Shown here in pieces: positions 57,064 through 58,116 of a DNA stretch of 64,000 nt. The notes below the pieces were generated by a model. The model saw nothing but the letters and a program-made list of their open reading frames with translations. It did no database searches and had not been told where the DNA came from. The position numbers and the translations under genes are program-made. Origin of the DNA: a virus; IMG/VR virus record IMGVR_UViG_3300011013_000008, positions 22,123-86,122 of that record; one strand, 5' to 3'. Position 1 is the first letter of the stretch, and each line of letters opens with the position of its first letter.

Positions 57064-57690
57064 AATGTTATACTCCTACGATTGATAAAGCTGAAATTAA
57101 AACTTGATAGCCAACATAAACTAGCAAGCCCGTATAAATTGTGCGAAAGTCCAACAAAAATTTTAAAATGTGTTTCATTTTTTCGCCCTCTGGTTCGCCT
57201 GTTTGATAGCCTCGCGGCTATACTCTATAGCCAAGTTCGGATTGTCACGGATAAAAAATCTAGCATCTTTTAAAGCGTTAAAAGATGTTATGACCTGTTT
57301 TGTTTTAGCATGAATAATTGTGTACATTTTAGATTGCCTCGTTTTTTAATTTAAAAGAAAGTTTAGCGGTCAGATTATCCCGCTTGCCTATTTTATAGCT
57401 AATCCTGCTAATATCCAGACCGCCGCCAATTATGCGCCCGCGTTGCGCTCGACTATGCCCAATATTAGCGGCCTCCCTCGTCAAATTCATTCCACAACCA
57501 TAAAGATACAGGACTGGGCGAGTATTGCAAGAGATTATTGAAAATAAATTGAAAATAATTTGTTCCACAGGTAGCGGACAGGAAAAAAGTGTCATATCCC
57601 TCAGGCCTTCTATATGCCCGTTTAAGCGATTTTATGATACCACCTTATACTGCTATCAGTTCGCCGAGATAATGGAAATTTGAGTTTTCA

Positions 57691-57731
57691 ATATCCCAAA
57701 AGAGATATAGGTATATCCCAAAAGAGATATA
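57691..57731. repeat. 19-bp direct repeat, two copies (22-bp period)
   Basis: ATATCCCAAAAGAGATATA at 57691 and 57713. Confidence 0.9.
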
Positions 57732-57820
57732 TTAGTTTTACTAATAGGTGTATAAATAAATTTTATGACTTAAGGTCATAAGTAAATTTTATAGGGATAT
57801 AAATATAACTAATTAGAAAG

Positions 57821-57911
57821 TTGGCATGATTTATGCTAGAATGATTATCTAGCAAGAGTTGTGCCAATTTTCAAGCTGGCACGAATTATGCTATAGCAAG
57901 AATCATGCCAA
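57821..57911. promoter_or_regulatory. four sigma54 -24/-12 motifs in two convergent pairs
   Basis: TTGGCATGATTTATGCT(+), TTGGCACAACTCTTGCT(-), CTGGCACGAATTATGCT(+), TTGGCATGATTCTTGCT(-); all GG-N10-GC. Confidence 0.75.
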
Positions 57912-58006
57912 TAAGCTCAGTTTATGATGATTTTGCTATAAGCTCAGTTTATGACGATTTTGCTATAAGCTCAGTTTATGACGATTTTGCTATAAACTGA
58001 GTTTAT
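57911..58006. repeat. 27-bp tandem repeat, three copies, plus an inverted core
   Basis: ATAAGCTCAGTTTATGAYGATTTTGCT x3, then ATAAACTGAGTTTAT. Confidence 0.9.
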
Positions 58007-58116
58007 CACGCTCGCCCAAAATTTGCGCCTAGTGCCCCCCTTTCTTTAAAAATGGATTTTTACATGCTTGACTAGACATATATTTTATGTTAGCATTAGT
58101 TTATATAAAACGCATT

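What the first reader, a model, noticed from the sequence alone, without database searches (positions are those of the whole stretch)
57690..58010. Dense catalogue of different operator-like palindromes: possible multi-factor DNA sponge
Seen, back to back within 320 bp: ATATCC-N6-AGATAT x2 at 22-bp period (a related ATATCC-N6-GGATAT lies near 61114); TATTAGT-TTT-ACTAATA (57730); TTATGAC-N5-GTCATAA (57763); the sigma54 quartet; and ATAA-N7-TTAT x4 (57911-58006). Established: T-N11-A dyads are typical LysR-family sites, and the first motif loosely resembles a NarL/NarP 7-2-7 site. Inference: with the Fur boxes downstream, the pre-early region looks like a non-coding array that titrates or senses several host regulators, or coats incoming DNA with host proteins. 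The factor assignments are tentative.
Basis: partly seen in the sequence, partly recalled or inferred. Interest (0 to 1): 0.8.

Follow-up and report, generated by a model that had tools for sequence, protein, structure and literature searches.

The report
Protein-binding site array in T5-like pre-early region
A real, unusually dense cluster of repeated palindromic DNA sites lies in the untranslated control region of a distant T5-like phage's first-expressed genes; one site type, resembling sigma-54 promoters, is shared with marine relatives, and there is no evidence that the cluster soaks up many host regulators.

Summary
The stretch is the most self-complementary 341-nt window of 858 in the genome, and both strands fold equally well, so the symmetry is in the DNA. 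The "catalogue" reduces to four site families. These are the ATATCC dyads, six copies of TATAA-N7-TTATGAC (two head-to-head copies make the "TTATGAC palindrome", four make the 27-bp array), one 17-bp palindrome, and four sigma54-type -24/-12 elements in two face-to-face pairs.

The stretch lies in a 1.0-1.3 kb untranslated gap. On one side is a leftward unit of small genes. On the other is a rightward unit: A2-like gene, a nuclease family hit, then dmp. T5 "Repeat Region 1/2" and the gap upstream of A2 in Vibrio T5-like phages occupy the same position.

The sigma54-like motif is confined to that pre-early DNA in nine of the ten Vibrio phage genomes I scanned. The other three families have no match in relatives, and one recurs between promoters of this phage.

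My reading is a control region bound by a few factors. A sigma54-type factor is the only host assignment with comparative support. The LysR and NarL assignments and titration are unsupported. The closest known thing is the T5 repeat regions, whose function is unsolved.

The parts
57328..58627 (.). Untranslated control region between the leftward small-gene unit and the rightward A2-like gene. It measures 57596-58627 if the doubtful 88-aa ORF is counted as a gene.
   Evidence: ORF maps. The 88-aa ORF 57329-57595 translates to a Cys-rich, implausible product with no family hit.
57691..57730 (+). Two tandem ATATCC-N6-AGATAT dyads, 22 bp apart
57730..57746 (.). 17-bp palindrome TATTAGT-TTT-ACTAATA, single copy
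   Evidence: 0 matches in relatives with 1 mismatch allowed
57751..57793 (.). Head-to-head pair of the unit TATAA-N7-TTATGAC (57751-57769 on +, 57775-57793 on -). Their inner ends form the TTATGAC-N5-GTCATAA palindrome.
57821..57911 (.). Four sigma54-type -24/-12 elements: 57821-57838 (+), 57850-57867 (-), 57876-57893 (+), 57894-57911 (-). They form two face-to-face pairs.
   Evidence: The same motif class is confined to pre-early DNA of relatives.
57911..58010 (+). 27-bp tandem array, 3.7 copies. Each copy carries the unit (T)ATAA-N7-TTATGAC; the last copy is a variant.
58232..58261 (-). Consensus sigma70-type promoter (TTGACA-18-TATAAT with TG, 12 of 12) that faces left into the array and is followed by a hairpin and a T-run. 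It lies outside the finding but bears on it.
58328..58560 (+). Two strong sigma70-type promoters (11 of 12 each) facing the A2-like gene
58628..59083 (+). A2-like gene (151 aa), first gene of the rightward pre-early unit
   Evidence: Weak, collinear similarity to T5 A2: BLASTP E 5e-4; hhalign E 2.5e-4, 43% probability, 115 columns. Synteny with dmp.
60432..60959 (+). dmp homologue (175 aa). It anchors the identification of the pre-early module.
   Evidence: E 7e-14 to T5 dmp and 5e-14 to GRLPWR dmp
61114..61131 (.). Third ATATCC dyad (ATATCC-N6-GGATAT), lying between a leftward consensus promoter and the promoter of the next rightward gene

Best explanation
The stretch is the left half of the untranslated control region in the middle of this phage's T5-type pre-early module. 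It is a compact array of binding sites for a small number of DNA-binding proteins, in four families.

The sigma54-type family is a conserved hallmark of pre-early DNA in marine T5-like phages. It most likely docks a conserved factor. Host sigma54 RNA polymerase is the leading candidate (I put it at about one in two), and a conserved phage protein such as the A2-like protein is the alternative.

The three private families flank the sigma54-type sites at 0-200 bp on both sides. They most likely bind dimeric regulators, either phage-encoded or specific to this host. These would set the timing of the divergent pre-early transcription that starts here, and possibly the handling of the first-entering DNA.

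Shown: the sites, their non-randomness, their grouping into families, their position, and which of them are conserved. Inferred: that proteins bind them, which proteins, and the regulatory outcome.
For: Position:
- dmp homology is clear (E 7e-14 and 5e-14). A2 similarity is weak but collinear.
- Gene order is small genes(-) | gap | A2-like, nuclease-family hit, dmp(+).
- The same layout holds in the terminal repeat of Vibrio phage GRLPWR (gap 3175-4182, then A2, A1, dmp), in PG07, and in T5, where it is Repeat Region 1/2 with the pre-early promoters.
- The gap upstream of A2 is conserved as DNA among four Vibrio phages of three genera, mean column identity 74%.

Promoters:
- The region has 15 sigma70-like sites against 6.8 expected. 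They include a 12-of-12 site facing left and two 11-of-12 sites facing right.

Families:
- The ATATCC dyad recurs between divergent promoters at 61114.

Sigma54-type family (pattern TGGCAYNNNNNWTGC):
- Ours: 4 of 4 genome matches fall within 90 bp.
- PG07: 5 of 5 within 3 kb.
- VPG01: 4 of 4 within 0.5 kb. GRLPWR and Direpillow8: 4 of 4 each, being 2 distinct sites present in both terminal repeats.
- X1 6 of 6, VspSw_1 7 of 7, D252 6 of 6 and 70E37.1 6 of 6, each within 3-4 kb and 5-11 kb from terL.
- The reversed-pattern control gives 0-1 per genome in these records.
- The N5 spacer varies while the two blocks hold. The seventh base, which the pattern leaves free, is G in 47 of all 60 matches listed. 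This matches the recalled extended sigma54 consensus. Many of these matches are related or duplicated, so they are not independent.
- Face-to-face pairs recur in PG07, X1, D252 and 70E37.1, as in ours.
Against: - No protein binding is shown.
- The host is unknown.
- No enhancer-binding ATPase domain (PF00158) is found in the phage.
- None of the 10 small neighbouring ORFs scanned has a significant DNA-binding family hit.
- At one orthologous site the -12 C is not kept: PG07 has ...TTTGG and VPG01 ...CTTGA, while the two Thalassavirus phages keep TTGC.
- In the closest relative, L003, only 2 of 4 tandem TGGCATG units carry TTGC. This fits a factor that reads the TGGCATGATT part at least as well as it fits sigma54.
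- Face-to-face promoters would obstruct each other.
- The nearest genes lie 257-792 nt downstream.
- There is no IHF consensus site and no DnaA consensus box in 57300-58700.
- JSF10 shows 5 scattered matches with 4 control matches, so no enrichment. T5 has 1 match, at chance level.
- Extreme dyad density is not a shared property of the homologous gaps. The best window ranks 3 of 199 in PG07, 12 of 84 in GRLPWR, 15 of 123 in L003 and 6 of 97 in T5 Repeat Region 1/2.
Confidence: 0.5

Rival explanations
1. Replication origin of the iteron type. An initiator binds the four tandem units, the head-to-head pair acts as its operator, the AT-rich stretch 57744-57815 melts, and the strong leftward promoter at 58261 activates or primes.
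For: Four tandem copies plus one inverted pair of the same ~19-bp unit. An AT-rich segment around the inverted pair. A consensus promoter reads into the array. The cumulative GC-skew minimum falls near 55-58 kb, although this also follows the switch in gene orientation.
Against: No initiator gene is identified next to it. There is no DnaA consensus box. The units are absent from relatives. T5 origins were mapped near the middle of the genome, according to Davison's text citing his refs 34-36. In T5, replication genes are not expressed while only pre-early DNA is in the cell.
Confidence: 0.12
2. One reading: a multi-factor sponge that titrates or senses several host regulators (LysR-type, NarL/NarP-type, sigma54, Fur), or coats the incoming DNA with host proteins.
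For: The sigma54-like family is conserved across phages of different hosts and confined to first-entering DNA. Davison proposed that host DnaA binds the T5 repeat regions (sections read). It also occurs at 61027 and 62131 here.
Against: Three of the four families are private to this lineage. One of them is placed like an ordinary operator. Copy numbers are 1-6 per family. The LysR criterion is non-specific. The NarL and Fur assignments were not testable here. No result speaks to titration.
Confidence: 0.08
3. Genome terminus or packaging recognition region: small-terminase binding sites of the lambda cosB or pac kind, at the edge of the terminal repeat.
For: The gap lies on the terS side of the pre-early genes. 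In the closest relative, L003, it directly abuts terS. The deposited VPG01 record starts inside the homologous gap.
Against: In GRLPWR and T5 the homologous gap lies in the middle of the terminal repeat, not at its edge. The VPG01 record has no terminal duplication, so its start may be arbitrary. Here terS is 1.6 kb and at least four genes away, and a separate 83-bp x 2.8 tandem repeat lies directly upstream of terS at 56172-56401. The physical ends could not be determined.
Confidence: 0.08
4. Structured RNA: a leader or small RNA transcribed from the leftward consensus promoter, with the palindromes acting as hairpins.
For: A consensus promoter faces the region. Folding z-scores are -8.
Against: Both strands fold equally well, as expected for DNA dyads. 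The stems are A/T-rich and short. A hairpin plus T-run lies directly after the promoter, before the array. There is no Rfam match at or near a gathering score; the best match inside the region scores 21.8 bits against 82. No relatives are available for a covariation test.
Confidence: 0.07

Closest known systems
Untranslated Repeat Regions 1/2 of the phage T5 left terminal repeat (sections 3.3, 4.2, 4.3 and 4.5 of Davison, bioRxiv 10.1101/866236, read; T5 annotation AY543070)
   Same: It lies upstream of A2, in the middle of the pre-early module, between divergent transcription units. [quoted passage not shown] Its function is unknown, and host-protein binding has been proposed.
   Different: There is no DNA similarity and no DnaA consensus box. 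I found no counterpart of IRC-spacer-IRD. T5 lacks the sigma54-like family; its one match is mid-genome. The A2-dmp block points away from the terminase here, whereas in T5 and PG07 it points the same way as the terminase. Whether this stretch lies in a long terminal repeat is unknown.
Sigma54 (RpoN) -24/-12 promoters with upstream enhancer sites (consensus recalled, not taken from a call)
   Same: There are four matches to TGGCAC-N5-TTGC-type spacing. In relatives the two blocks are conserved while the spacer varies, and G follows TGGCAY in most cases. Repeated dyads lie 0-200 bp upstream on both sides.
   Different: The elements form face-to-face overlapping pairs. The phage has no activator ATPase. 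There is no IHF consensus site. Two of the four read ATGC at -12. The -12 C is lost at some orthologous sites. No gene lies close downstream.
Iteron arrays of replication origins and their inverted-repeat operators (general knowledge, recalled)
   Same: Tandem direct copies plus an inverted pair of one ~19-bp unit, next to A/T-rich DNA.
   Different: No initiator gene is adjacent, there are no DnaA boxes, and the units are not conserved in relatives.
Small-terminase recognition sites such as lambda cosB (recalled)
   Same: Several repeated sites in non-coding DNA on the terS side.
   Different: It is not adjacent to terS here. The homologous gap is internal to the terminal repeat in GRLPWR and T5.

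Membership tests
T5-type pre-early untranslated repeat region (Repeat Region 1/2) | Lies between divergent units of the pre-early module, upstream of A2 | tested here: met
   dmp E 7e-14 and 5e-14. A2-like, weak. Same layout in GRLPWR, PG07 and T5.
T5-type pre-early untranslated repeat region (Repeat Region 1/2) | Lies inside a long direct terminal repeat | not testable with these tools
   The record is a circle-like assembly with a 123-bp end overlap. Only contigs of one run were available, and their depths (15-23 against 11-15) are not usable.
T5-type pre-early untranslated repeat region (Repeat Region 1/2) | IRC-spacer-IRD with paired DnaA boxes, mirrored in the injection-stop region | tested here: not met
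   No TTWTNCACA box in 57300-58700; the nearest are at 59921 and 63841. The only elements shared between the two gaps are other short repeats.
T5-type pre-early untranslated repeat region (Repeat Region 1/2) | DNA conservation with other T5-like phages | tested here: not met
   blastn finds no match in 50,697 phage records. Three site families have 0 hits in 601,571 bases of relatives. Only the sigma54-like motif class is shared.
Sigma54-dependent promoter | GG at -24 and GC at -12 with fixed spacing | tested here: met
   4 of 4 elements
Sigma54-dependent promoter | GG/GC conserved at orthologous sites | tested here: inconclusive
   Kept in most matches. The -12 C is lost in PG07 and VPG01 at one aligned site and in 2 of 4 L003 units.
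Sigma54-dependent promoter | Enhancer-binding ATPase and host rpoN available | tested here: inconclusive
   No PF00158 domain in the phage. The host is unknown, so host factors could not be checked.
Iteron-type replication origin | Three or more tandem iterons with an adjacent initiator gene and an unwinding element or DnaA boxes | tested here: inconclusive
   The iteron-like array is present. No initiator was identified. No DnaA box.
   The host is unknown and no regulator matrices are at hand. T-N11-A has only two specified bases.
Terminase recognition site (cos/pac) | Coincides with a physical genome end or a terminase cut | not testable with these tools
   No raw reads were available.

The most novel reading that the evidence does not exclude
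The first-entering DNA of T5-like phages is a docking platform for conserved host DNA-binding machines. Here and in Vibrio T5-like phages it carries 4-7 sigma54-holoenzyme sites, partly as face-to-face pairs that cannot fire productively. These hold silent closed complexes that act as a clamp, roadblock or timing switch for pre-early transcription or for two-step DNA transfer. In this phage private iteron arrays flank them and serve as the enhancer or release sites.
Probability: 0.2. Interest if true: 0.8.

Novelty: new variant of a known kind. Interest (0 to 1): 0.5.

Why it matters
The untranslated repeat regions of T5 pre-early DNA have been described since the 1980s, and nobody knows what binds them or how DNA transfer pauses there. 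This window shows that a very distant relative keeps such a region at the same place with entirely different sites.

The comparison it prompted gives a concrete lead. A sigma54-type motif is confined to the pre-early or terminal-repeat DNA in nine of the ten cultured Vibrio T5-like phages I scanned. My three literature searches listed nothing on this. The lead can be tested directly in culturable phage-host pairs.

For this window alone, the finding is an ordinary-looking but unusually dense regulatory array with unknown binders.

Tried and rejected
Searches for close relatives, needed to test conservation of the private motifs, all failed.
- blastn of 57300-58700 against the phage collection: no match.
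- The A2-like protein and TerS against viral contigs: no confirmed relative.
- An alignment of the A2-like protein against metagenome contigs: 396 pattern hits, none confirmed.
- tblastn of the A2-like protein against phages: no match.
- The protein search found two relatives of the A2-like protein (43% and 39% identity) on ~1.7-kb contigs.
- A 17-nt piece of the 27-bp repeat hit one viral contig (L002), which on reading was a chance palindrome in unrelated DNA.
- TerL gave 56 IMG/VR loci, all at 59% identity or less and 56% at full length. These are too distant for DNA alignment, so I used them only for motif scans and layout.

Other negative or unusable results:
- Rfam: nothing near a gathering score.
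- Sequencing runs: one DNA run of a subsurface metagenome, kept as contigs, and no RNA holder listed. Laying it gave contigs that break at the repeats and depths of 15-23 across 56.8-61.4 kb against 11-15 beyond. I do not use this as evidence of a terminal repeat.
- Rejected as a shared trait: extreme dyad density of the homologous gaps in relatives.
- Rejected: DnaA boxes and IHF sites in this gap.
- Rejected: the 99-aa protein at 63683 as an A2 paralogue (E 0.61).
- Rejected: the 274-aa protein as A1 (E 0.49).
- I looked at a possible link between TTGCGCC motifs and T5 nick sites.
- In the Salmonella screen paper (passages read), rpoN and himA/himD mutants resist a T5-like phage, but the authors attribute this to RpoS and glutamine effects. 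It is not evidence here.
Davison's supplemental description of the repeats was not seen and may bear on the comparison with Repeat Region 1.

Limits on what I checked: for X1, VspSw_1, D252 and 70E37.1 I inferred that the motif clusters lie in pre-early DNA only from their distance to terL and by analogy with PG07. I did not read their annotation.
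Full report
WHERE THE WINDOW COMES FROM. The window is bases 22123-86122 of an 86,122-base virus record. The two ends of that record overlap by 123 bases, so it is a circle-like assembly and any long terminal repeat would be collapsed. One subsurface-metagenome run holds it. G+C is about 33%.

The gene content is that of a distant T5-like siphovirus:
- terminase large and small subunits at 54299-56094 on the minus strand;
- tape measure, major tail protein, a fused protease/major head protein, DNA polymerase, SbcC-like protein and ribonucleotide reductase;
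- a cluster of about 19 tRNA genes plus a tmRNA call at genome 9364-24972.

The nearest cultured phages by TerL are Vibrio Demerecviridae at about 51% identity. The nearest IMG/VR contigs reach 56% over the full length.

THE OBSERVATION.

Shuffle controls:
- TGGCAYNNNNNWTGC: 4 matches against 0.22 expected.
- ATATCCNNNNNNRGATAT: 3 sites against 0.06 expected; the tool lists 4 matches because the 61114 palindrome counts on both strands.
- ATAANNNNNNNTTATSA: 9 matches against 1.83 expected, 6 of them within 57752-58008.
- In none of the three tests did any of 100 shuffles reach the observed count.

Measures of the stretch as a whole:
- It folds at z -8.0 and -8.4 on the two strands.
- It is the most self-complementary of 858 windows of its genome after correcting for G+C.
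- It holds 13 perfect dyads against a genome mean of 2.9, a count reached by 16 of 1717 windows.
- Equal folding of both strands points to symmetry in the DNA, not to an RNA.

THE CATALOGUE IS SMALLER THAN IT LOOKS. When the units are aligned, the "TTATGAC-N5-GTCATAA palindrome" turns out to be two head-to-head copies (57751-57769 on plus, 57775-57793 on minus) of one unit, TATAA-N7-TTATGAC. The same unit is repeated four times in the 27-bp array. The heptamer ATATCCC of the first motif also appears inverted at 57794-57800, and the dyad recurs at 61114.

That leaves four families:
- the ATATCC dyads;
- the six-copy TATAA-N7-TTATGAC unit;
- one 17-bp palindrome;
- the four sigma54-type elements.

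SURROUNDINGS. The 88-aa ORF that bounds the gap on the left gives an implausible product with no family hit. The untranslated region is therefore probably 57328-58627.

To its left, on the minus strand, lies a unit of small genes, then an 83-bp x 2.8 tandem repeat (56172-56401), then terS and terL.

To its right, on the plus strand, lie:
- a 151-aa protein with weak but collinear similarity to T5 A2 (E 5e-4 by BLASTP; hhalign E 2.5e-4 over 115 columns);
- a 77-aa ORF;
- a clear dmp homologue (E 7e-14 to T5 dmp, 5e-14 to GRLPWR dmp).

The right half of the gap holds strong sigma70-type promoters in both directions, including a 12-of-12 site facing left toward the array.

THE SAME PLACE IN RELATIVES. 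In T5, A2-A1-dmp are read leftward from a divergent promoter region in the middle of the 10-kb terminal repeat. [quoted passage not shown]

In Vibrio phage GRLPWR, duplicated motif hits 120,326 bases apart in the 128,336-base record imply a terminal repeat of about 8 kb. Its layout is small genes(-) | gap 3175-4182 | A2, A1, dmp(+). PG07 has a 1.1-kb gap in the same place.

That gap is conserved as DNA among four Vibrio phages of three genera, at 74% mean column identity.

In the closest relative, L003, and in nine further IMG/VR loci, an A2-like gene is likewise transcribed away from terL.

So the finding lies in the positional counterpart of a known, unexplained feature of T5-like phages. 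In this lineage and in L003, the A2-dmp block points away from the terminase. In T5 and PG07 it points the same way as the terminase.

WHAT IS CONSERVED AND WHAT IS NOT. The ATATCC dyad, the 17-bp palindrome, the TTATGAC palindrome and the promoter-embedded TAGCAC-N7-GTGCTA operator have 0 matches in 601,571 bases of relatives' loci. The 15-bp dyad of the 27-bp unit has 2 loose matches when 2 mismatches are allowed.

The sigma54-type motif is different. Strict matches to TGGCAYNNNNNWTGC:
- ours: 4 of 4 within 90 bp;
- PG07: 5 of 5 within 3 kb;
- VPG01: 4 of 4 within 0.5 kb;
- GRLPWR and Direpillow8: 4 of 4 each, all inside the terminal repeats;
- X1: 6 of 6; VspSw_1: 7 of 7; D252: 6 of 6; 70E37.1: 6 of 6. 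Each cluster spans 3-4 kb and lies 5-11 kb from terL.

The reversed-pattern control gives 0-1 per genome in these records. Three weakly matching records are not counted above: JSF10 has 5 scattered matches and 4 control matches, T5 has 1 match mid-genome, and the fragments G002 and G003 have 1 match each.

The two blocks hold while the five spacer bases vary. The free seventh base is G in 47 of all 60 listed matches, as in the recalled extended sigma54 consensus. These matches are not independent, because many phages are related and some sites are counted in both repeats.

Face-to-face pairs with an 18-19-nt offset occur in PG07, X1, D252, 70E37.1 and here.

In several IMG/VR relatives the elements lie 470-890 bp upstream of an A2-like gene and point toward it. 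L003 has four tandem TGGCATG units pointing toward its A2-like gene.

DOUBTS ABOUT SIGMA54.
- At one aligned site the -12 C is lost in PG07 and VPG01.
- Two of the four L003 units lack TTGC.
- Two of ours read ATGC.
- Face-to-face sites would block each other as promoters.
- The phage has no enhancer-binding ATPase domain.
- There is no IHF consensus site.
- The nearest genes are 257-792 nt away.

A conserved phage protein reading TGGCATGATT, for example the A2-like protein, fits about as well. I put sigma54 holoenzyme at roughly one in two for this family.

HOW IT MOST LIKELY WORKS. I read the stretch as the upstream half of a divergent control region. A conserved factor docks on the four central elements. 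Two to three lineage-specific dimeric regulators occupy the flanking arrays, which lie about 60-200 bp upstream of the rightward elements and about 35-160 bp upstream of the leftward ones (distances worked out from the coordinates).

The ATATCC dyad at 61114 supports ordinary regulation. It lies between a leftward consensus promoter and the promoter of the next gene. A further five promoter cassettes nearby also carry their own palindromic operator.

Which proteins bind, and whether the outcome is repression, activation or a pause in DNA entry, is inference.

RIVALS. An iteron-type origin is the best rival, because tandem copies plus an inverted pair of one unit sit next to A/T-rich DNA. However, no initiator and no DnaA box is present, and T5 origins map elsewhere according to Davison's text.

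A terminus or packaging site is unlikely, because the homologous gap is internal to the repeat in GRLPWR and T5, and a separate repeat array abuts terS here.

A structured RNA is unlikely because of the strand symmetry and the lack of any family match.

The sponge reading has no direct support, but its weaker form, host proteins on first-entering DNA, is not excluded. Besides the sigma54-type sites, the 10-mer AATGAGAATC is confined to the T5 injection-stop region (8 of 8 matches, in the two repeats). It also occurs here at 61027 and 62131, once in the PG07 gap, and twice in VPG01, at 2624 and 13085.

NOVELTY. The kind of thing is known: the untranslated repeat regions of T5 pre-early DNA. This is a new variant that shares no sequence with T5 and lacks its DnaA boxes.

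The restriction of a sigma54-type motif to pre-early DNA of marine T5-like phages did not appear in my three searches. I saw listings only, and passages of PMC8744999. I cannot say it is absent from print beyond those searches.

VERDICT. Interest is moderate.

Noticed in passing
window 56172-56401: An 83-bp tandem repeat (2.8 copies, 95% matches) lies directly upstream of terS and covers two doubtful small ORFs. It is a better candidate than the finding for a terminase site or a terminal-repeat boundary.
   Followed up: no
window 58232-58261 (-), about 58145-58174 (-), 61085-61114 (-): There are three copies of a leftward unit: a sigma70-type promoter (12 of 12 at 58261; an extended -10 read from the sequence in the others), then a G+C-rich hairpin, a T-run and CGGCGCA. 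The units would give RNAs of only about 40 nt. Their complement explains the TTGCGCCGAAAAA motif. TTGCGCC occurs 10 times in the genome, 7 of them on the plus strand between 58023 and 62634.
   Followed up: partly
It also occurs in the PG07 A2-upstream gap and at VPG01 2624 (plus 13085). GRLPWR has none.
   Followed up: partly
window 63559-63653 and 58314-58328: Five tandem copies of AGCATTATTTAATAG just upstream of the gene at 63683 are the exact inverse of the sequence abutting the -35 of the promoter at 58328, and a near copy abuts the promoter at 58531. This may be a shared operator linking the two untranslated gaps.
   Followed up: no
window 58023-58059, 62395-62431, 62495-62531, 59104-59117(-): TTGCGCCTAGT and about 37 nt after it, directly right of the finding, recur in the two 100-bp repeats near the second untranslated gap (70% identity) and once inverted.
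   Followed up: no
L003 1362-1436 (minus strand): The closest relative by TerL has four tandem TGGCATG units (spacing 26, 17, 17 nt), all pointing toward its A2-like gene. Only two carry TTGC. A 10-bp x 4 repeat (TTCGTTAGAC) lies between them and terS.
   Followed up: partly
L063 (VPG01, MW398869) record position 1: The deposited linear record starts inside the conserved A2-upstream gap, about 10 nt after the -10 of a promoter shared with PG07 and GRLPWR. No terminal duplication is present in the record.
   Followed up: partly
window 59604-60428: No A1-sized gene is present. The 274-aa protein in the A1 position shows no similarity to GRLPWR A1 (E 0.49).
   Followed up: partly
window 57561-57574, 58156-58169, 61087-61100: There are three copies of a CCACAGGTA-centred near-palindrome. 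One lies left of the finding, and two lie inside the spacers of the leftward promoters.
   Followed up: no
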